NCBI GenBank assembly: GCA_028692955.1
Contig: JAQUWH010000006.1
Location: forward strand, 8,273 to 72,272
DNA length: 64,000 bases
Origin: Clostridia bacterium
Lineage (GTDB): Bacteria; Bacillota; Clostridia; TANB77; CAG-465
Reading direction: 5' to 3'
Positions within the stretch are counted from its first letter, which is position 1. Each line of letters begins with the position of its first letter. Made by a program: the position numbers and the translations under genes. The notes beneath the pieces were generated by a model. It saw only the letters and a list, made by a program, of their open reading frames with translations. It did no database searches and had not been told where the DNA came from. Positions 1,996 through 51,963 of this stretch are shown here, one piece after another.

Positions 1996-4737
1996 ATGAA
2001 AAAGTTTTTAGTAATTGATGGAAATAGTATTATGAATCGAGCTTTTTATGGGCTTTCTGCCAATATGACCAGTTCTTATTTAGGGATCCATACCAATGCA
2101 GTATATGGTTTTTTAAATATTTATTGGATGATAGAAGATAAAATAAAACCAGATTATATTGCTGTATCCTTTGATCTAAAAGCTCCTACTTTTAGACACA
2201 AGATGTATGATGAATACAAAGGAACTAGAAAAGGTATGCCAGAGGAATTAGCAGAACAGATGGGACCTATAAAAGAAGTATTAACTGCTATGAATATTCC
2301 TATTTTAGAATTAGAAGGATATGAAGCAGATGATATATTAGGTACTGTTGCTAAAACTAATATGAATAAGGGTATCTTTACGTATATACTAACTGGTGAT
2401 AAGGATTCTTTTCAATTAATCAGTGATACTACCTCTATTATCATTCCAACAACTAGATTTGGTAAAACAGAATATACGATTTATACTCCAGAATTACTAA
2501 AAGAAAAGCAAAATATCGAACCCTATCAAGTCGTTCATATTAAATCATTGATGGGAGATAGCTCAGATAATATTCCTGGTGTCAAGGGAATAGGAGAAAA
2601 GACCGCATATTCTTTAATTGAGAAATATACAACTCTTGAAAATATTTATACTAACATAGAACAGCTGGATGCCAGTCAGAAAATAAAAGAAAAATTAGTA
2701 AATGATAAAGAAATGGCATATTTAAGCAAAGAGCTTGCTACTATCGATCAAGAAGTACCAGTTACTATTGATTACGATAAATGTATTGTTTCTTCAGTCA
2801 ATTTAGATGAATTATTTAAATTATTTAAAAAATTAGAATTCAATAAATTTATGAGCAAGTTTGATTTTACAAATATATCTAATGATGATAATCAAATTAC
2901 CTCGAAAATAGAAATTGAAGTCTCAAATTTCTATCTATTAAATAGCAATAATATTCATCAATATAGAGACGAATTAAAGGCCGTTTTTTCAGAAGATAAA
3001 ATAGCATATATTTTAAATTACAATTATGATAATTTTGTACCTAATTGCTATTTAAATAACAAATCTATTTTTGGTGTATATTCAAATGCAAAAGATAGTA
3101 TATATGTAATAGATATAGAAGAGGTATCAAAGAAAACTCCAGAAATACTAAAAACTATCTTGGAAGATTTTGTCACAGCAGATGTAGTAAAACTTGGTTA
3201 TAACATTAAACAAGATTTGTTGTTTTTCTTTCGCCAAGGACTTAGCCATTTAACTCATTTTGATTATGATTTAATGATTGCTTACTATTTAATGAATCCT
3301 AGTAGGAACAATTACCTTATGGATTACATTTTAAATGATTTATTTGAGCTTAGTATCGAAAAAGAAAACCTAGCAGAAACAAAACAATTATCTATGTTTG
3401 AAGAAAACAGTGATGATGAAGAATTGTTAACTGCTATACAAATGAATAATATAAAAATGTATCTAAAGGGGATTTACTTATCACATGATATCATTACTAA
3501 AAAATTAAAAGAGCTAGAGATGTTAACGCTATTTTTGGATATTGAAATGCCACTAACAGAAACGCTTGCTAGTATGGAATATCATGGTATGTATATTGAT
3601 TTAACCAGATTAAATGAATTTGATGCTATGATAAGCACTACTTTAAATCAATTAGAAGAGGAAATCTATCATCTTGCAGGTGAAACCTTTAATATTAACT
3701 CTACACAGCAGCTAGGTGTAGTATTATTCGAAAAACTATCTTTACCTACTGTAAAGAAGAACAAAACCGGTTACTCAACGGATAAAACGGTGCTAGAAGA
3801 ACTCAGTGAACAGCACCCTATTATTGATAAAGTATTAGAGTATAGACAAACAATGAAGTTAAAATCTACGTATGTTGATGGATTAAGAGATAAGATTGCA
3901 GATGATGGTAGAATTCATACTACTTTTATGCAAACAGTAACAACAACTGGTAGACTAAGCAGTATTGAACCAAATCTACAAAATATACCCATCAAATTGG
4001 AACTAGGAAGCAAAATAAGAGACTTTTTTACTGCAGAGGGAATGCAACTGCTTGTAGATTCTGATTATAGCCAAATCGAACTGAGAGTACTCGCTCATAT
4101 TTCAAATGATGAGGTAATGATTGATTCTTTTAAAAATCATATTGATATTCATAAAGTGACAGCATCTCAAGTATTCAATATACCATTAGAAGATGTAACT
4201 AGTACGATGCGTTCTCATGCTAAGGCTGTTAATTTTGGTATCGTCTATGGTATTAGTGAATTTGGCCTCGCAAAAAATATTGGTTCTACTCGTTATGAAG
4301 CCAAACAATATATTGAAAATTATTTAAACAAATACCAAGGCATACATTCATTTATGACAGAGATTGTAAAAAAGGCAAAAGAAGTAGGGTATGTGAATAC
4401 TATTTTTGGAAGAAGAAGATATATTCCAGAACTAAATAGCAAGAATAAAAATATCATTCAATTTGGAGAACGTATTGCTATGAATACTCCAATACAGGGT
4501 AGTGCAGCGGATATAATTAAATTAGCCATGAATAAAATATACAAAGAAATTAAAGATAGAAACCTTAAATCTAAGCTCATTATGCAAGTACATGATGAAT
4601 TAATTATAGAGACACATCAAGACGAGATAGAAGTAATCAAAGAGATAATGAAAGATTCAATGGAAAACATAGTTAAATTAAATGTTCCACTTGAAGTCGA
4701 CTTGAACATAGGAAAAAGTTGGTATGAAGCCAAATAA
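1996..4737 (+). CDS. polA: DNA polymerase I
   Basis: 913 aa. N-terminal 5'-3' exonuclease (DGNSIMNRAFY, GDSSDNIPGVKGIGEKTA). C-terminal family A polymerase motifs (DYSQIELRVLAH, RSHAKAVNFGIVYG, QVHDEL). Confidence 0.95.
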   Translation: MKKFLVIDGNSIMNRAFYGLSANMTSSYLGIHTNAVYGFLNIYWMIEDKIKPDYIAVSFDLKAPTFRHKMYDEYKGTRKGMPEELAEQMGPIKEVLTAMNIPILELEGYEADDILGTVAKTNMNKGIFTYILTGDKDSFQLISDTTSIIIPTTRFGKTEYTIYTPELLKEKQNIEPYQVVHIKSLMGDSSDNIPGVKGIGEKTAYSLIEKYTTLENIYTNIEQLDASQKIKEKLVNDKEMAYLSKELATIDQEVPVTIDYDKCIVSSVNLDELFKLFKKLEFNKFMSKFDFTNISNDDNQITSKIEIEVSNFYLLNSNNIHQYRDELKAVFSEDKIAYILNYNYDNFVPNCYLNNKSIFGVYSNAKDSIYVIDIEEVSKKTPEILKTILEDFVTADVVKLGYNIKQDLLFFFRQGLSHLTHFDYDLMIAYYLMNPSRNNYLMDYILNDLFELSIEKENLAETKQLSMFEENSDDEELLTAIQMNNIKMYLKGIYLSHDIITKKLKELEMLTLFLDIEMPLTETLASMEYHGMYIDLTRLNEFDAMISTTLNQLEEEIYHLAGETFNINSTQQLGVVLFEKLSLPTVKKNKTGYSTDKTVLEELSEQHPIIDKVLEYRQTMKLKSTYVDGLRDKIADDGRIHTTFMQTVTTTGRLSSIEPNLQNIPIKLELGSKIRDFFTAEGMQLLVDSDYSQIELRVLAHISNDEVMIDSFKNHIDIHKVTASQVFNIPLEDVTSTMRSHAKAVNFGIVYGISEFGLAKNIGSTRYEAKQYIENYLNKYQGIHSFMTEIVKKAKEVGYVNTIFGRRRYIPELNSKNKNIIQFGERIAMNTPIQGSAADIIKLAMNKIYKEIKDRNLKSKLIMQVHDELIIETHQDEIEVIKEIMKDSMENIVKLNVPLEVDLNIGKSWYEAK

Positions 4738-4748
4738 AGGATGGTTTA

Positions 4749-5318
4749 ATGAATAAAATTGCAAAGAAAAATAAATTATTACCAAGAATATTACTGATAG
4801 CAACTATATTAATTGCTATTCTATTATTAATATATAATATCTTAAGAAATTATGTTTATCCGCTAAAACATTTTGATATAGTTAAAAATGAGGCCGCTAT
4901 TAATAACATAGATCCTTATTTAATCATGGCAATCATCAAATCAGAAAGTGGTTTTAATAAGAATGCCGTTTCTAATAAACAAGCTAGAGGTCTTATGCAA
5001 ATAATGGAATCGACAGCTAATGATATCAAAGATAAACTTGATATAGAACTTGAAACAGATAATTTATATGATGAAGAAACTAATATTAAAATTGGCTGCA
5101 AATATATGAAGTATTTGATTGATCGATATGATGGAAATTATTATATTGCAATCTGTGCATATAATGCAGGGTTGGGTAACATAGATAAATGGCTAGAACA
5201 AGGGATTATTCAAAAAGATTTAGATACTAATACTAATACACAAATTCCTTTTAAGGAAACAGCTAAATATTTAGACAAAGTAATTTCATCATATAAAATG
5301 TATCGTTTGTTATATTAG
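4749..5318 (+). CDS. Membrane-anchored lytic transglycosylase (SLT domain)
   Basis: 189 aa. N-terminal TM helix and SLT catalytic motif ESGFNKNAVSNKQARGLMQI, with AYNAG downstream. Confidence 0.8.
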   Translation: MNKIAKKNKLLPRILLIATILIAILLLIYNILRNYVYPLKHFDIVKNEAAINNIDPYLIMAIIKSESGFNKNAVSNKQARGLMQIMESTANDIKDKLDIELETDNLYDEETNIKIGCKYMKYLIDRYDGNYYIAICAYNAGLGNIDKWLEQGIIQKDLDTNTNTQIPFKETAKYLDKVISSYKMYRLLY

Positions 5319-47297: not shown

Positions 47298-47474
47298 ATC
47301 TTTACTGTTACAAATTAACACAATTATGCCCTCTTATGTTACATTTATTATGACACTGGGGATAAATTTTATTTTTTATACTGAATAGTAACTGGTTTTA
47401 TCACATTTTTGGAACAAAGCTCTTTGTTATTCCCCCAATTTATCTGATTTCACTTTAAATTTTTTATACCTTTG

Positions 47475-47924
47475 TTATTCTAGTAATTTATTTAATTCAT
47501 CTTTAAATTCACTAATATCTTTAAACTGTCTATAGACAGAAGCAAATCTAACATAAGCAATTTCGTCAATTTCTTTTAGTTTTTGTATCACCAGATCACC
47601 TATTTTGCTAGCATAAATTTCCTTATCCAATGAATTATTAAGTTCCATTTCAATTTCATTGGTTGCTTTTTCAATTTGTTCTAAAGAAACAGGTCTCTTT
47701 TCGCACGCTCTAAGCATCCCATTAATGATTTTATCACGATTAAATTGTTGCCTTACTCCATTTTTCTTTATAATAATAATGGGTGTATATTCAATTTTTT
47801 CGTAAGTAGTAAAACGATTCTTGCATTTTAAACATTCACGTCTTCTACGAATCGAGTTTCCCTCTTCTATTGATCTGGAATCAATTACCTTACTTTCTTC
47901 ATAACCACATTTTATACAATGCAT
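47475..47924 (-). CDS. nrdR: Transcriptional repressor NrdR
   Basis: 149 aa. Zn-ribbon MHCIKCG...[12 protein letters not shown] plus an ATP-cone. Confidence 0.95.
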
Positions 47925-47936
47925 CGCATACCTCTC

Positions 47937-48458
47937 TTAAAATTCATGTAATATAACATTACCACTTTCCATACTCTCCTTGCATTTAATTGATCTTTGA
48001 TTAGAACTTCCTCTAAATAGTAAATGTTCATTCATTAGTTCTTCTTCAAATTTACCATCAATTAATATATCCGTTTGATTTAGTAATTCTTGGTATCCAT
48101 TTTCTTCATTTGCATCTTTTAACAAATCTTCAAACAAATAACCAGTATATACAATGGTTGAAAGTTTTTCTCTATTAATTTGAGATAATAATTTAGCAAC
48201 TTGTTTTGCTTGTATGAATGGTTCTCCGCCACTAATAGTAACTCCCTTTAATAGAGGATTTTTCTTAATATCTTCTACTATGTCCGATATGTTTGTAATA
48301 TTACCACCATTGTAGCTATGTGTTTGTGGATTATGGCATCCTTTACAATGATGAGGACAACCTTGTGTAAAGACAACATATCTAAATCCAGGGCCATCCA
48401 CTGTAGATTCTTTTACAATTCCAGAGATTCTTAAGGTATTATCCTCTTTGTTTTCCAT
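47937..48458 (-). CDS. nrdG: Anaerobic ribonucleoside-triphosphate reductase activating protein
   Basis: Start at MENKEDN after TAGGAGG. Radical-SAM cluster motif GCPHHCKGCHN and the GGEP motif. Confidence 0.9.
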   Translation of the reverse strand: MENKEDNTLRISGIVKESTVDGPGFRYVVFTQGCPHHCKGCHNPQTHSYNGGNITNISDIVEDIKKNPLLKGVTISGGEPFIQAKQVAKLLSQINREKLSTIVYTGYLFEDLLKDANEENGYQELLNQTDILIDGKFEEELMNEHLLFRGSSNQRSIKCKESMESGNVILHEF

Positions 48459-48472
48459 CTCAGTGCCTCCTA

Positions 48473-48760
48473 TTAACATGCACAATCTGATAATTTTTCA
48501 ACATTATGTTTTACTCTATCGTGCTCTTCTGCTCTCTTTCCGTTATTAAATCTATCAACAGTACCTACTAGATATCCTGTAATTCTTCTTATTCTTTCAA
48601 AAGGAACAGACTCAAATTTGTAATTCATATCTACAAATTCTCCATCGATCGTAATATCTAAAGTACTTAATAACTTTCCAGGATTATTGTCTTGTATATG
48701 TTTTACATAAGCATTGATTTCCTCTTGAGACATTTCTCCACCGATTACATTAATTTTCAT
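48473..48760 (-). CDS. 95-aa stand-alone glycyl-radical-motif protein (paralogue of the NrdD C-terminus)
   Basis: C-terminal FERIRRITGYLVGTVDRFNNGKRAEEHDRVKHNV is 33/34 identical to NrdD residues just before its C-terminus. The N-terminal ~55 aa are unrelated to NrdD. The ORF fills the nrdD-nrdG gap, with GGGGGAA upstream of ATG. Confidence 0.7.
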   Translation of the reverse strand: MKINVIGGEMSQEEINAYVKHIQDNNPGKLLSTLDITIDGEFVDMNYKFESVPFERIRRITGYLVGTVDRFNNGKRAEEHDRVKHNVEKLSDCAC

Positions 48761-48783
48761 ATATTGATTCCCCCTATTATCTA

Positions 48784-51324
48784 CTACTGAATACCATAAC
48801 CTACATTATGTTTTACCCTATCATGTTCTTCTGCACGTTTTGCATTATTGAATCTATCTACAGTACCTACTAAGTAACCTGTAATTCTTCTTATTCTTTC
48901 AAATCCCACATTTGTTTCATCATCATCTGTTCTACCACAATGTGGGCATTTTGATTCAATGATTCCTGTATATCCACAAATTGGATCTCTATCGACCGGA
49001 TGGTTAATTGCTCCATAACCAATACCAGACTCTTTCATACATCTGACTACTTGTTCAAATGCATCCAAGTTTTTAGTTGGATCACCATCCAATTCAACAT
49101 AGCTAATATGACCACCATTTGTTAAATTATGATATGGTGCTTCTCGTGTGATTTTGTCAAATGCACTAATCTTGTAATAAACTGGAACATGGAATGAGTT
49201 TGTATAATAATCCCTATCTGTAACACCTTCAATAATCCCAAATTTTTTCTTATCAATCTTTACAAATCTACCAGATAATCCTTCAGCAGGTGTTGCAATT
49301 AATGAGAAATTAAGGTTAGTTTTTTCACTTGTTTGATCCATTCTATCTCTCATATAGCCAACGATTCTTAAACCAAGTTTTTGTGCTTCTTCGCTTTCAC
49401 CATGATGTTTACCAATTAACGCTTTTAAACATTCTGCAAGCCCTATAAATCCTAATGTTAGAGTTCCGTGTTTTAGTATTTCTCCCACTTCATCATTTGG
49501 ATTTAGTTTTTCAGAGTCTAACCATACGCCTTGGCCCATTAAGAATGGATAGTTCATTACCTTTTTATGTGATTGTATGTTTAATCTATCTAATAGTTGA
49601 TCTACTACCAAATCAATTCTTTCAGACAACATTTCAAAGAATTTATCAACATCACCTTTTGCCAAGATGCCAAGTCTTGGTAAATTAATAGATGTAAAGC
49701 TTAAATTTCCTCTACCACAAGTAACTTCTCTTGTAGGATCATAATTATTTGCCATAACTCTTGTTCTACAACCCATATACGCAATTTCACTGTTATAATC
49801 TCCTGGTTTGTAATATTGAATATTAAATGGTGCATCAATAAATGAGAAGTTAGGGAATAATCTTTTTGCAGAAACCCTACAACCTAATTTGAAGATATCA
49901 TAGTTTGGTTCCCCTTCGTTATAGTTAATACCATCTTTGATTTTTAATATTTGAATTGGGAATATTGGTGTTTCACCTTTTCCAAGTCCTGCATCTGTAG
50001 CATATAATAATTGTTCCATGACAAGTCTACCTTCAGGTGTTGTATCAAGTCCATAGTTAATAGAAGAAAATGGTACTTGAGCGCCAGCACGTGAGTGCAT
50101 TGTATTTAAGTTATGGATAAAGCCTTCCATTGCTTGGAATGTATCTCTTGTAATTTCTTTATCTGTATATTTTACACAGAATTTTTGAATTTTTTCTGCT
50201 AAAACTTCACCATATTTTTCTATTAATATCTCTTTTTCATATGCTAAATAACCAGTGGTATCTTCTAATGATGGAATCACACCATGTTCGTTATATACTT
50301 TACTCATAATCGCTTTTGAAATATCTTCAGAACTCTCAAGTTCAGCAAGTAATTCAATTGTTTTTTGTAAAGAAGGAATAATATCTGTTTGCTCTCTTAA
50401 CTTTGAAATAATTGATTTTGCTATTTCTTTTGAATATTTTGCATCCTTTAAAACATCAATTGCTCTTTCTAAAGCAGGTACTAACATTTGTTCTTCATTA
50501 ATCTTATTGATTACCTTTTTAGAAGTATCTTCAGAATTTTCTACATCTGTTAGCAATTCTAATGCTTTTTGTAAATTCTTTAAATATAACTTTTTGTATG
50601 ATTTTCTAACACCTATTGCCATAGCATACTCAAAGTTTGGTATTGATTGTCCACCATGTTGATCGTTTTGATTCGATTGAATTGCAATTGCTGCAAGTGC
50701 TGCATACGATCCAATGGATTGCGGTTCTCTTAAATGTCCTTCACCTGTTGAAAAACCGTCTTTAAATAATTTAATAAGGTCTATTTGACAACAAGTTGTT
50801 GTTAAAGTCAAAAAGTCTAAATCATGGATATGAATATCTCCACTTGCATGAGCATCAGCATGTTCTTTCTTTAAAACAAACATTTGATAAAATTTTTTCG
50901 CACCTTCAGAACCATATTTTAACATTGTTCCCATTGCTGTATCCGCATTAACATTTGCATTTTCTCTTTTAACATCATTGTCTTTTGCATCTTCAAATGT
51001 TAATTTTTCATATGTTTTCATGATTTCAGAGTTCATTTCTCTTTGTTTTGTTCTTTCAGCCCTATAAAGAATATATGCTTTGGCAGTTGCAGCACAATCT
51101 TCATCAATTAAAGTACGTTCTACTACGTCTTGAACTTGTTCAACGGTTGGACAAGTTGTACTTGTATCTCTTTCTAAACGTTCGCATACTTTTGCTGCTA
51201 AATCCTCCGCCTCTTTATAGTTGTTTCCACCAACTGAAACAGCTGCTTTGTAAATTGCCTGTGCAATCTTTTCTACATTAAAAGGAACAGTTCTACCATC
51301 TCTTTTAATAATTTTAGTAACCAT
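48784..51324 (-). CDS. nrdD: Anaerobic (class III) ribonucleoside-triphosphate reductase
   Basis: 846 aa. N-terminal ATP-cone, NDQHGGQ, QAMEGFIHNLNTMHSRAG, C-terminal Zn site CGYTG...CPHCG and glycyl-radical motif RRITGY. Confidence 0.95.
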   Translation of the reverse strand: MVTKIIKRDGRTVPFNVEKIAQAIYKAAVSVGGNNYKEAEDLAAKVCERLERDTSTTCPTVEQVQDVVERTLIDEDCAATAKAYILYRAERTKQREMNSEIMKTYEKLTFEDAKDNDVKRENANVNADTAMGTMLKYGSEGAKKFYQMFVLKKEHADAHASGDIHIHDLDFLTLTTTCCQIDLIKLFKDGFSTGEGHLREPQSIGSYAALAAIAIQSNQNDQHGGQSIPNFEYAMAIGVRKSYKKLYLKNLQKALELLTDVENSEDTSKKVINKINEEQMLVPALERAIDVLKDAKYSKEIAKSIISKLREQTDIIPSLQKTIELLAELESSEDISKAIMSKVYNEHGVIPSLEDTTGYLAYEKEILIEKYGEVLAEKIQKFCVKYTDKEITRDTFQAMEGFIHNLNTMHSRAGAQVPFSSINYGLDTTPEGRLVMEQLLYATDAGLGKGETPIFPIQILKIKDGINYNEGEPNYDIFKLGCRVSAKRLFPNFSFIDAPFNIQYYKPGDYNSEIAYMGCRTRVMANNYDPTREVTCGRGNLSFTSINLPRLGILAKGDVDKFFEMLSERIDLVVDQLLDRLNIQSHKKVMNYPFLMGQGVWLDSEKLNPNDEVGEILKHGTLTLGFIGLAECLKALIGKHHGESEEAQKLGLRIVGYMRDRMDQTSEKTNLNFSLIATPAEGLSGRFVKIDKKKFGIIEGVTDRDYYTNSFHVPVYYKISAFDKITREAPYHNLTNGGHISYVELDGDPTKNLDAFEQVVRCMKESGIGYGAINHPVDRDPICGYTGIIESKCPHCGRTDDDETNVGFERIRRITGYLVGTVDRFNNAKRAEEHDRVKHNVGYGIQ

Positions 51325-51360
51325 AAAAATACCACCCCTTGTATTTGTCTTAAAAGTAAA

Positions 51361-51376
51361 ACACTATATATTGTGT
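51361..51376. promoter_or_regulatory. NrdR box
   Basis: ACACTATATATTGTGT matches the published 16-bp NrdR palindrome (acaCwAtATaTwGtgt) at every position. It lies 13 nt downstream of the -10 element. Confidence 0.75.
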
Positions 51377-51388
51377 TTTCTGATTGTG

Positions 51389-51417
51389 ATTATACCACCC
51401 CATTTTTTTAATGTCAA
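51389..51417 (-). promoter_or_regulatory. nrdD operon promoter
   Basis: On the minus strand: TTGACA (51417-51412), 17 nt, TGgTATAAT extended -10 (TATAAT at 51394-51389). Confidence 0.6.
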
Positions 51418-51963
51418 TACTTTTTTGAAAAAAAACCGTTACATTTTTATTACAATATTACTTTAATATTAATCCATTTTTTACCATACATGGTAGGTGG
51501 TAAATTTGGTACTTTTCAAACGACATAAACAGATTACTTTTTTGTAGAATTTTATTGAATCATGCTTGAAGAAAATTTCTCATTTAACTAAAAAATATAA
51601 ATACATCTCCTAAAAATGACATTGTAAAATATTAAATACAATATGATAATTGGTAATTACGAATCTGAACAATATTACAATCAAGAATGATACGATTGAT
51701 ATATGTGATGATTTACATGATATTCTTTTCGGCAATATAAGAATAAAGAAAAAGAGTAAAAGCACTTCATTTTAACATGAAATACTCTACTCTTTTTCTT
51801 TTCAACATTTTAGTATTGCTTCTTACTTACTCTCTGTGCAATGGCGTTCTGCATTTGTACAAGTACAATTAGTATGATATCTATTAGTACATTTCTCTAT
51901 GCCAGTATATTTTCATCATACTTTCCATATATTTTCTTCCTTTAGCCATTGTTTATTAGATCA

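What the first reader, a model, noticed from the sequence alone, without database searches (positions are those of the whole stretch)
48473..48760. Stand-alone glycyl-radical module between nrdD and nrdG: a possible GrcA/YfiD-style spare part for class III ribonucleotide reductase
**Seen in the sequence**
- A 95-aa ORF fills the nrdD-nrdG gap exactly.
- Its last 34 pre-terminal residues, FERIRRITGYLVGTVDRFNNGKRAEEHDRVKHNV, repeat the NrdD C-terminal glycyl-radical segment, including the RxxGY radical glycine.
- A hand alignment of 48500-48601 with 48802-48903 gives 88/102 identical nucleotides.
- Of the 14 differences, 13 are synonymous and one gives Gly/Ala. Both copies therefore appear to be under purifying selection, which argues against an assembly duplicate or a decaying fragment.
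- The N-terminal ~55 aa (MKINVIGGEMSQEEINAYVKHIQDNNPGKLLSTLDITIDGEFVDMNYKFESVP) are unrelated to NrdD.
- The NrdD Cys4 zinc site is absent, and the ORF ends in SDCAC.

**Established knowledge**
- O2 cleaves glycyl-radical enzymes at the radical glycine.
- In E. coli, the small protein GrcA/YfiD carries the PFL radical domain and replaces the damaged PFL C-terminus.
- NrdD is also cleaved at its radical glycine by O2.

**Inference**
- This ORF could be the equivalent rescue module for NrdD, or a decoy or regulator of the activase NrdG.
- I am not aware of a characterised NrdD-specific spare part, but I cannot search to confirm that.
Basis: partly seen in the sequence, partly recalled or inferred. 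Interest (0 to 1): 0.85.

Follow-up and report, generated by a model that had tools for sequence, protein, structure and literature searches.

The report
Stand-alone glycyl-radical subunit for anaerobic RNR
A conserved 95-residue protein encoded between nrdD and nrdG carries a copy of the radical-bearing tail of the anaerobic ribonucleotide reductase, and comparative genomics suggests it supplies that radical in trans, which would be the first spare part or separate radical subunit for any glycyl radical enzyme other than pyruvate formate-lyase.

Summary
ORF 48473-48760 (-) lies between nrdD and nrdG. Its residues 54-87 repeat the NrdD glycyl-radical segment at 88/102 nucleotides, with 12 synonymous codon changes and one Gly/Ala.

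It is a real gene family. More than 120 full-length homologues of 86-98 aa were found, in at least 190 species-representative genomes of gut Clostridia. Both halves are under purifying selection. No curated family exists, and members are mis-named "anaerobic RNR".

Three new lines tie it to class III RNR as a trans-acting radical module:
- In two independent lineages the adjacent NrdD has lost its own radical glycine. Its core stays under strong purifying selection (dN/dS about 0.08) and the small gene keeps RRITGY.
- Where the gene is unlinked from nrdDG, tandem NrdR boxes precede it in 35 of 55 loci, about 160-fold enrichment.
- Nineteen phage contigs carry it without nrdD or nrdG nearby, as T4 carries Y06I for PFL.

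It is not homologous to GrcA. A June 2026 review says spare parts are known only for formate lyases.

The mechanism is inferred, not shown. Whether it repairs O2-damaged NrdD, works routinely as a subunit, or both, needs biochemistry.

The parts
51389..51417 (-). Sigma-70 promoter of the nrdD-x-nrdG-nrdR operon (TTGACA-17-TATAAT, extended -10 TG)
   Evidence: 12/12 consensus match, the only perfect one in 47300-51600. No terminator-like site on the minus strand inside the operon.
51361..51376 (.). NrdR box ACACTATATATTGTGT, just downstream of the -10 hexamer
   Evidence: 14/14 match to ACACWANATNTWGTGT, the only perfect hit in the 64-kb window. All six positions reported as highly conserved (C4 A6 A8 T9 T11 G13) are present (PMC13584703).
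48784..51324 (-). nrdD, class III ribonucleotide reductase, 846 aa (ATP-cone plus NRDD barrel), with its own C-terminal glycyl-radical segment
   Evidence: Pfam NRDD 2.8e-204 and ATP-cone 2.1e-23. NCBIfam NF005497 at 1141 bits. Closest solved structure is Prevotella copri NrdD 8p23.
48802..48903 (-). NrdD residues 808-841, the native glycyl-radical segment; radical Gly816 codon at 48877-48879
   Evidence: Aligns to P. copri NrdD QRITGYLVGT...DRVTH. It is the paralogous copy of the small ORF's segment.
48769..48775 (-). Shine-Dalgarno AGGGGGA, 8 nt before the ATG of the small ORF
   Evidence: Read directly from the sequence.
48473..48760 (-). Small ORF (95 aa plus stop): the stand-alone NrdD-type glycyl-radical module
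   Evidence: ORF. Exact match is P0001; more than 120 full-length homologues. Found in 190 GTDB species genomes. dN/dS is 0.23 for the N half and 0.12 for the C half.
48602..48760 (-). N-domain, residues 1-53: family-specific beta-alpha-beta-beta unit with no relative
   Evidence: AlphaFold2 pLDDT 79-85 over residues 1-50, with strands 2-6, 31-39 and 42-49 and helix 12-25. No Foldseek PDB hit at E <= 1e-3. A profile search of 1.84e9 representative proteins gave 290 hits, nearly all small proteins; the larger hits inspected carried or began the Gly segment, apart from truncated, frameshifted or fused sequences.
48500..48601 (-). Residues 54-87, the glycyl-radical segment FERIRRITGYLVGTVDRFNNGKRAEEHDRVKHNV; predicted radical Gly62 codon at 48575-48577
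   Evidence: 88/102 nt identical to the nrdD segment. R56-T67, including G62 and Y63, are invariant in 23 family members.
48476..48499 (-). C-terminal tail EKLSDCAC with a CxC pair, which this genome's NrdD tail lacks
   Evidence: 51 of 79 family members have at least 2 Cys in the tail. In the window and in L005-L007 only the small protein has them.
47937..48458 (-). nrdG, the radical-SAM activase; likely start is the ATG at 48458 after GGAGG (the mechanical ORF call starts at TTG 48485)
   Evidence: TIGR02491 NrdG 6.3e-44, above its cut-off. Fer4_12 and Radical_SAM domains. Start context. Orthologues are 170-173 aa.
47475..47924 (-). nrdR, the dATP/ATP-sensing repressor of RNR operons and last gene of the operon
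   Evidence: Zn_ribbon_NrdR 2.4e-21 and ATP-cone 4.3e-23.

Best explanation
The ORF encodes a small, separately translated glycyl-radical subunit of the class III ribonucleotide reductase.

Proposed mechanism; steps 2-4 are inferred, not shown:
1. The ORF is co-transcribed with nrdD, nrdG and nrdR from one NrdR-controlled promoter.
2. NrdG, with SAM and a reduced flavodoxin or ferredoxin, abstracts a hydrogen from Gly62 in the RRITG62Y loop. This is the reaction it performs on NrdD Gly816.
3. The C-terminal 34 residues are the same as NrdD's own radical segment. They insert into the NrdD barrel when the native segment is missing or cleaved by O2 at Gly816, or possibly when it is swung out. They hand the radical to the finger-loop cysteine (Cys519, MGCRTR).
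4. The family-specific N-domain (residues 1-50) replaces the lost covalent tether by docking on NrdD, on NrdG, or on both.

In this window NrdD still has its own glycine, so the module is a facultative spare or second radical cartridge. In two related lineages NrdD has lost its glycine and the module appears to be the obligatory radical subunit. Phages carry the module alone, presumably to keep host NrdD active during infection.
For: **Shown**
- The copy is exact and its differences are synonymous.
- There are more than 120 full-length homologues. R56-T67 is invariant in 23 aligned members.
- At least 190 species-representative genomes carry the gene.
- Both halves are under purifying selection: dN/dS 0.23 and 0.12.
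- The nrdD-x-nrdG-nrdR order holds in 23 GTDB or ENA loci plus 6 more.
- **Natural experiment.**
  - In L001-4, L010, L013, L014, L020 and L025, NrdD ends ...KCSERLKRFVTHGECASLESF.
  - In L009 and L112-117, independently, NrdD ends ...GTERIKRIRNYTYKDENK....
  - Neither tail has the G-Y motif or the downstream helix, and only 17-42 nt remain before the small gene.
  - The small gene keeps FERIRRITGYLVGT.
- The catalytic cysteines stay invariant. The group B Gly-less NrdD core has dN/dS of about 0.08 at dS up to 0.74 (L009 was not measured the same way), so the enzyme is still in use.
- Where the small gene is unlinked, tandem NrdR boxes lie 40-260 bp upstream in 35 of 55 loci.
  - The criterion was at least 11 of 12 core positions at 31-32 bp spacing.
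  - Density is 3.6 per kb against 0.023 per kb elsewhere.
  - Box definition is from PMC13584703.
- Nineteen IMG/VR contigs carry it amid tail, endolysin, DNA polymerase and primase-helicase genes. None has nrdD or nrdG within 5 kb.
- In several genomes the NrdD and small-protein segments share lineage-specific residues, for example AEVRDRTKH in both copies of L018.

**From the literature**
- O2 cleaves glycyl radical enzymes at the radical glycine. YfiD/GrcA and T4 Y06I rescue cleaved PFL after activation by PFL-AE (PMC13450708; PMC8683613).
Against: - There is no biochemical, proteomic or transcript evidence.
- In the window NrdD has an intact glycine, so the module is not needed for basal activity there.
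- The AlphaFold model of the isolated protein gives the C-terminal half only pLDDT of about 50. This neither supports nor contradicts docking.
- I could not check whether Gly-less-NrdD genomes carry a second, intact nrdD elsewhere.
- I could not check whether NrdD keeps its glycine in genomes with the unlinked small gene.
- A subgroup with Gly->Asp (L037, L065, L071, L074, L076, L084) is still under purifying selection. The scaffold therefore has at least one function that needs no radical.
- Other Clostridia (C. difficile, Subdoligranulum, Monoglobus) manage without the gene.
Confidence: 0.65

Rival explanations
1. Decoy, buffer or regulator of the activase. The module is a substrate mimic that competes with NrdD for NrdG, or stores a radical, and so tunes how much NrdD is activated. 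It never docks productively on NrdD.
For: - It carries the full NrdG recognition loop.
- It lies directly upstream of nrdG.
- The Gly->Asp paralogues show that a non-radical version of the scaffold is maintained by selection.
Against: - A decoy does not explain why NrdD can lose its own glycine twice, stay under strong purifying selection, and keep the module next to it.
- The helix after the loop (DRFN..KRAE..DRVKH) is as conserved as in NrdD. From my own knowledge of the PFL-AE-peptide complex, not tested here, activases mainly contact the glycine loop.
- Phages would gain little from titrating the host activase.
Confidence: 0.15
2. Alternative radical cartridge with a different turnover chemistry. 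The module docks as in the main explanation, but its role is to bring a C-terminal dithiol tail (CC or CxC) that NrdD lacks. That tail could change the reductant used or bind a metal. Repair of damage would not be its purpose.
For: - 51 of 79 members carry at least 2 Cys in the tail.
- In the window and in L005-L007 the NrdD tail has none while the small protein has CxC or CC.
- Class I and II RNRs use C-terminal cysteine pairs to re-reduce the active site (PMC9669993).
Against: - 25 of 79 members have no tail cysteine.
- In many genomes NrdD itself has a similar Cys pair.
- There is no evidence that these NrdDs use thiol reductants.
Confidence: 0.1
3. Radical donor or subunit for a different acceptor, that is, another glycyl radical enzyme or an unknown partner, rather than NrdD.
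For: - In most Ruminococcus-type genomes the gene is not next to nrdD.
- In one clade it sits beside metK.
Against: - The segment is NrdD-type and matches no other glycyl radical enzyme.
- The unlinked copies carry NrdR boxes. Published descriptions place NrdR boxes in the promoter regions of RNR operons (PMC13584703).
Confidence: 0.05
4. Non-functional remnant of a partial duplication of the nrdD 3' end, or an assembly artefact.
For: The segment is a near-copy of the adjacent gene's end.
Against: - The full-length ORF is conserved in 190 or more species and in hundreds of independent assemblies.
- dN/dS is well below 1 in both halves.
- It has its own Shine-Dalgarno sequence.
- It has its own NrdR-controlled promoter when unlinked.
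- Phages carry it.
Confidence: 0.02

Closest known systems
GrcA/YfiD of E. coli and Y06I of phage T4 (autonomous glycyl radical cofactors, spare parts for pyruvate formate-lyase)
   Same: - A small stand-alone protein that duplicates the C-terminal radical segment of a large glycyl radical enzyme.
- It is expected to be activated by that enzyme's own activase.
- A phage-borne version exists.
- One half is the radical segment and the other half is unrelated to the parent enzyme.
   Different: - No sequence homology: Pfam Gly_radical does not hit, and a family profile search of all PDB sequences finds only NrdD, not YfiD or PFL.
- The target is class III RNR, not a formate lyase.
- The N-terminal half is predicted to be folded here (pLDDT about 80). 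It is disordered in YfiD.
- The gene sits inside the nrdDG operon or under NrdR control.
- In two lineages the parent enzyme has lost its own glycine. This is not reported for PFL in the papers read.
NrdD C-terminal glycyl-radical domain (class III RNR; T4 1h78, P. copri 8p23)
   Same: Residues 54-87 are 97% identical to the cognate NrdD 808-841. They align to P. copri NrdD 706-738.
   Different: - It lacks the barrel, the ATP-cone and the zinc ribbon.
- Only the last roughly 30 positions of the 562-position Pfam model match.
- Database names calling it 'anaerobic ribonucleoside-triphosphate reductase' are mis-annotations.
Split class II RNR NrdJa/NrdJb (Pseudomonas aeruginosa)
   Same: It is a precedent for an RNR whose C-terminal functional region is a separate polypeptide encoded next to the catalytic chain (PMC9669993). 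The Gly-less NrdD plus module arrangement is the class III counterpart.
   Different: [quoted passage not shown]
- The class II radical comes from adenosylcobalamin.
- There is no duplication stage with both copies present.
Small accessory subunits of other glycyl radical enzymes (BssB/BssC of benzylsuccinate synthase, HpdC of 4-hydroxyphenylacetate decarboxylase)
   Same: Small proteins encoded beside a glycyl radical enzyme and its activase that bind the catalytic subunit.
   Different: From my own knowledge, those subunits carry FeS clusters or regulate access and do not bear the glycyl radical. Here the small protein carries the radical motif itself.

Membership tests
GrcA/YfiD autonomous glycyl radical cofactor (IPR011140; Pfam Gly_radical PF01228) | Sequence homology to the PFL C-terminal glycyl radical domain | tested here: not met
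   The Pfam scan of the ORF hits only NRDD (PF13597), not Gly_radical. The family profile against all PDB sequences finds NrdD 8p23 only, and no YfiD or PFL at E <= 10.
GrcA/YfiD autonomous glycyl radical cofactor (IPR011140; Pfam Gly_radical PF01228) | Small stand-alone protein carrying the glycyl-radical fingerprint (R-x-x-G-aromatic) near its C-terminus | tested here: met
   95 aa, with RRITG62Y invariant in the family.
GrcA/YfiD autonomous glycyl radical cofactor (IPR011140; Pfam Gly_radical PF01228) | Radical installed by the parent enzyme's activase | not testable with these tools
   Only context is available: the gene abuts nrdG. EPR after incubation with NrdG, SAM and a reductant is needed.
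GrcA/YfiD autonomous glycyl radical cofactor (IPR011140; Pfam Gly_radical PF01228) | Restores activity to the O2-cleaved parent enzyme | not testable with these tools
   Indirect support only: natural Gly-less NrdDs retain the module and stay under purifying selection.
NrdD (class III RNR catalytic subunit; Pfam PF13597, TIGR02487) | Ten-stranded barrel with finger-loop cysteine; full-length match above the curated cut-off | tested here: not met
   NCBIfam NrdD models score 11.9-45 bits against cut-offs of 326-764. Pfam matches only model positions 533-562 of 562.
NrdD (class III RNR catalytic subunit; Pfam PF13597, TIGR02487) | C-terminal RxxGY glycyl-radical segment | tested here: met
   33/34 residues are identical to NrdD 808-841.
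NrdD (class III RNR catalytic subunit; Pfam PF13597, TIGR02487) | Zinc ribbon preceding the radical segment | tested here: not met
   No CxxC pairs occur before residue 54. The N-domain is an unrelated beta-alpha-beta-beta unit.
NrdR regulon (RNR operons) | 16-bp NrdR boxes, usually a pair 15-16 bp apart, in the promoter region | tested here: met
   The window operon has one perfect box at 51361-51376, but no tandem pair by my criterion. Among unlinked family members, 35 of 55 loci have a tandem pair, about 160-fold over background. Box definition is from PMC13584703.
Split RNR (separate polypeptide for the C-terminal functional region, as NrdJa/NrdJb) | Catalytic chain lacks the region, which is supplied by an adjacent gene | tested here: inconclusive
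   Not met in the window, where NrdD keeps Gly816. Met by sequence in relatives L001-4, L009, L010, L013, L014, L020, L025 and L112-117. Function in trans is not shown.

The most novel reading that the evidence does not exclude
Class III ribonucleotide reductase exists in a two-component form in which the glycyl radical sits on a separate protein of about 10 kDa.

- The window would show the facultative stage, with NrdD and the module both radical-competent.
- The CAG:465-type and L009-type gut Clostridia would show the obligate stage, with a Gly-less NrdD.
- Ruminococcus-type genomes would keep the module as an unlinked NrdR-regulon gene.
- Phages would carry it as an auxiliary gene to recharge host NrdD.

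This would be the first glycyl radical enzyme whose radical normally lives on a different polypeptide from the catalytic cysteine. It would also be the first spare part outside the formate lyases.
Probability: 0.5. Interest if true: 0.92.

Novelty: new variant of a known kind. Interest (0 to 1): 0.88.

Why it matters
Glycyl radical enzymes are destroyed by O2 through backbone cleavage at the radical glycine. Only pyruvate formate-lyase is known to have a repair part.
- A June 2026 review says it is still undetermined whether spare parts exist for any other glycyl radical enzyme (PMC13450708).
- Andorfer et al. 2021 raise the same possibility (PMC8683613).

This family gives a concrete candidate for the enzyme that makes DNA precursors in strict anaerobes. 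The candidate is widespread and can be expressed for testing.

The Gly-less NrdD lineages supply a natural truncation mutant with which to test trans-complementation. If that works, it changes the accepted one-chain architecture of class III RNR.

It would bear on three further questions:
- how gut Clostridia survive transient O2;
- what gut phages do to host nucleotide supply;
- how radical domains became separate subunits, as in class I RNR.

It also corrects a systematic mis-annotation: small ORFs named "anaerobic ribonucleoside-triphosphate reductase".

Tried and rejected
- **Fold search.** Foldseek of the AlphaFold model against the PDB gave no hit at E <= 1e-3; the best was E = 0.02 with TM below 0.4. 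The N-domain fold is uninformative.
- **PHROGs.** It has no dedicated family. The ORF hits only the end of an NrdD-like family.
- **Fusion or complex model.**
  - I built paired NrdD-core plus module sequences but did not submit them.
  - The tool returns no coordinates or inter-chain confidence.
  - The segment is near-identical to the native one, so placement in the barrel would not be an independent test.
- **Gene conversion versus co-adaptation of the two copies.**
  - Within-genome synonymous difference is median pS 0.15, against 0.30-0.31 between genomes.
  - In 7 of 14 genomes the small-protein segment's nearest sequence is the same genome's NrdD segment, tied with another genome's segment in one of them.
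  - This suggests some concerted evolution, but the segment is too short and codon-biased to decide.
  - In the window the pair is the most diverged (pS 0.55).
- **Deposited phages and plasmids.**
  - Two uncultured human-gut phage contigs carry a near-full-length copy.
  - The hits inspected (C. difficile, Subdoligranulum, Monoglobus) were NrdD C-termini, and the remaining partial hits are annotated as nrdD or cover only the Gly segment.
  - The apparent N-domain match in Monoglobus NrdD was a stretched alignment over a normal zinc-ribbon NrdD.
- **Group I intron in phage locus L107.** Rfam found none, although a homing endonuclease is present.
- **Cultured carriers.** Cluster names gave no cultured carrier of a radical-competent copy. 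R. flavefaciens YAD2003 has only the Gly->Asp paralogue.

Full report
**1. The observation**

- On the minus strand the window carries nrdD (48784..51324, 846 aa), a 95-aa ORF (48473..48760), nrdG (47937..48458 from the likely ATG) and nrdR (47475..47924).
- The ORF starts 23 nt after the nrdD stop, behind an AGGGGGA Shine-Dalgarno sequence. It ends 14 nt before the nrdG ATG, with nrdG's GGAGG in between.
- Positions 48500-48601 and 48802-48903 share 88 of 102 nucleotides. The 14 differences fall in 13 codons, 12 of them synonymous and one Gly/Ala.
- Pfam and NCBIfam see only the last roughly 30 positions of their NrdD models in residues 50-87. They see nothing in residues 1-50.
- A perfect sigma-70 promoter (51417-51389) followed by a perfect NrdR box (51376-51361) precedes nrdD. 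No terminator-like site lies inside the four-gene block on that strand.

**2. It is a gene family, not a remnant**

- A search of 5.8 billion proteins returned more than 120 full-length homologues of 86-98 aa at 62-100% identity.
  - P0001 matches exactly and comes from a "Clostridia bacterium" MAG.
  - The few that carry a name are called "anaerobic ribonucleoside-triphosphate reductase" or hypothetical.
- In 23 aligned members the invariant positions are G7, E14, Y18, D39, G40 and P53 in the N half. In the C half they are R56-T67 (RIRRITGYLVGT), RFN, R76, E78, DRV and H85.
- A profile of the N-terminal 55 residues alone was run against 1.84 billion representative proteins.
  - It found 290 proteins at E <= 1e-3, and 74 at E <= 1e-10. 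Almost all are 40-140 aa.
  - The longer ones I inspected are frameshifted or fused artefacts, or short extensions.
  - The N-domain therefore does not occur in any other architecture.
- The same N-terminal profile matched 190 species-representative genomes.
  - They include Ruminococcus, Oscillospiraceae, Christensenellaceae, "Clostridium sp. CAG:465/921" and R. flavefaciens YAD2003.
  - Eighty loci were kept for analysis.
- Pairwise Nei-Gojobori dN/dS has a median of 0.23 for residues 1-53 and 0.12 for residues 54-87.

**3. Four genomic situations**

- **(A) nrdD-x-nrdG-nrdR with NrdD keeping its own FERIRRITGYLVGT.** This covers the window and 13 loci.
- **(B) The same order, but NrdD has lost the radical segment.**
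  - In L001-4, L010, L013, L014, L020 and L025, NrdD ends ...CPHCGRKEHESDIKCSERLKRFVTHGECASLESF.
  - In L009 it ends ...GTERIKRIRNYTYKDENKEDKYNLESNELEIKILD, a different sequence on a different NrdD backbone (773 against 827 aa). That makes it an independent event.
  - Only 17-42 nt separate the NrdD stop from the small gene, so no hidden frame can hold the missing segment.
  - The L009-type tail recurs in six independent assemblies.
  - The group B tail recurs in ten loci from different species or samples.
  - Across A and B, 380 of 869 NrdD columns are invariant. They include C178, the finger-loop C519 and the ribbon cysteines.
  - The group B NrdD core has a median dN/dS of 0.079 at dS up to 0.74.
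  - These NrdDs are therefore maintained as working proteins without a glycine of their own, next to a module that has one.
- **(C) The small gene stands alone, with no nrdD, nrdG or nrdR within 4.5 kb.**
  - This covers 55 loci, mostly Ruminococcus-type.
  - Neighbouring genes vary. In one clade metK follows the small gene.
- **(D) Six loci (R. flavefaciens type) have Gly->Asp (DFQRAYRSADYLVN).**
  - They always lie between an FAD-dependent protein gene and rsmA.
  - They are still under purifying selection.

**4. Regulatory link for the unlinked copies**

- Published work describes NrdR sites as two 16-bp boxes separated by 15-16 bp. Positions C4, A6, A8, T9, T11 and G13 are highly conserved (PMC13584703).
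- In group C, 45 of 55 loci have at least one box-like 16-mer within 200 bp upstream.
- Matches of 12/14 or better run at 3.45 per kb there, against 0.020 per kb in the rest of the same loci.
- Thirty-five of 55 loci have a tandem pair within 40-260 bp upstream, scoring at least 11 of 12 core positions at 31-32 bp start-to-start spacing. Density is 3.6 per kb against 0.023 per kb elsewhere.
- Group D has none.
- So even where it is not next to nrdDG, the radical-competent small gene carries the promoter signature that these papers describe for RNR operons.

**5. Phages**

- Nineteen IMG/VR contigs, up to 212 kb long, encode the module with an intact RRITGY.
  - The exception is L107, where the gene is interrupted.
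  - None has nrdD or nrdG within 5 kb.
- Neighbouring genes match PHROGs families for tail proteins, endolysins, DNA polymerase and primase-helicase.
- Two uncultured human-gut phage records in GenBank also carry it.
- This parallels T4 Y06I, the phage-borne PFL spare part.

**6. Structure**

- AlphaFold2 with the 23-sequence alignment gives pLDDT 79-85 for residues 1-50, as strand-helix-strand-strand. It gives about 50 for the C-terminal half.
- Low confidence for the isolated C half is not informative either way about docking.
- Foldseek finds no significant PDB neighbour.
- A family profile against all PDB sequences hits only P. copri NrdD residues 706-738 (1.8e-9). It does not hit YfiD or PFL.

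**7. Interpretation**

- The simplest reading that covers situations A, B and C and the phages is a trans-acting glycyl-radical subunit of class III RNR. It would be activated by NrdG and would dock in place of the native C-terminal segment.
- In the window it is facultative. In group B and the L009 lineage it appears obligatory.
- A pure NrdG decoy does not explain situation B.
- Still inferred:
  - activation by NrdG;
  - docking on NrdD;
  - any link to O2 damage;
  - the roles of the N-domain and of the Cys-pair tail. That tail is present in 51 of 79 members and, in the window, only on the small protein.
- Some within-genome co-variation of the two segments exists (L018 has AEVRDRTKH in both). 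It cannot be separated from gene conversion.

**8. Comparison with what is known, and novelty**

- Functionally the closest system is GrcA/YfiD/Y06I. By sequence this is not a member of that family. It derives from NrdD.
- Split class II NrdJa/NrdJb is a precedent for a divided RNR.
- Six full-text searches found no description of an NrdD spare part or a split NrdD.
- The June 2026 review states that formate lyases are the only glycyl radical enzyme class with spare parts, and that the question is open for the others.
- C. difficile and Subdoligranulum have nrdD-nrdG with nothing in between, and Monoglobus has nrdD alone. The module is therefore lineage-restricted.

**9. Verdict**

- It is a new, non-homologous variant of the autonomous glycyl-radical-cofactor idea, applied to class III RNR.
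- Interest is high because it makes an explicitly open question directly testable.

Noticed in passing
window about 50257-50565 (-), NrdD residues 254-356: NrdD carries three protein-level repeats of about 34 aa (A[LI][ED][LV]L...S.ED..K...[VI]P[AS]L). They lie inside an insertion that P. copri NrdD lacks. Relatives have 0-3 copies, giving NrdD lengths of 773-851 aa. No DNA-level tandem repeat is present.
   Followed up: partly
L107 (IMGVR_UViG_2075704000_000008) 694-1795: In this phage contig the small gene is split exactly at RRI|TGY, the radical glycine. The insert is about 835 nt and encodes a 220-aa HNH_3/NUMOD4/I-HmuI-like homing endonuclease. It is probably an intron or a free-standing homing endonuclease gene aimed at the most conserved codons. 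Rfam found no group I or II intron.
   Followed up: partly
L037, L065, L071, L074, L076 (R. flavefaciens YAD2003), L084; small ORF at about 4501-4770 in each: These are paralogues in which the radical Gly is Asp and the loop is rewritten (DFQ[RH]AYRSADYLVN). They always sit between an FAD-dependent protein gene (PF21688) and rsmA. They have no NrdR box. The pN/pS ratio is about 0.2, so a non-radical version of the scaffold is maintained.
   Followed up: partly
L022 4501-6311, L087 1476-3348 and other Ruminococcus-type loci: In the 97-aa clade with the ...DCGCSLEEIA tail, the small gene lies just upstream of metK (SAM synthetase), which makes the activase's co-substrate. Several of these loci have two tandem NrdR-box pairs, at about -192 and -105.
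   Followed up: partly
window 48476-48499 (-) and the tails of family members and of NrdD in L005-L059: A Cys pair (CC, CxC or DCGC) follows the radical segment in 51 of 79 small proteins and in some NrdDs. In the window and in L005-L007 only the small protein has it. It resembles the redox-active C-terminal tails of class I and II RNRs, but its role here is unknown.
   Followed up: partly
L001-4, L010, L013, L014, L020, L025: NrdD C-terminus: The replacement tail of the Gly-less NrdD (KCSERLKRF[VI]T[HC]GEC[AS]SLE[SN]F) is itself conserved across species. It keeps the ER[LI][KR]R strand that an O2-cleaved NrdD would also retain, and it adds cysteines. It may have become a docking element for the module.
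   Followed up: no
window 47937-48485 (-): The mechanical ORF call for nrdG starts at TTG 48485 and overlaps the small ORF. The ATG at 48458, behind GGAGG, gives 173 aa like the orthologues and is the more likely start.
   Followed up: yes
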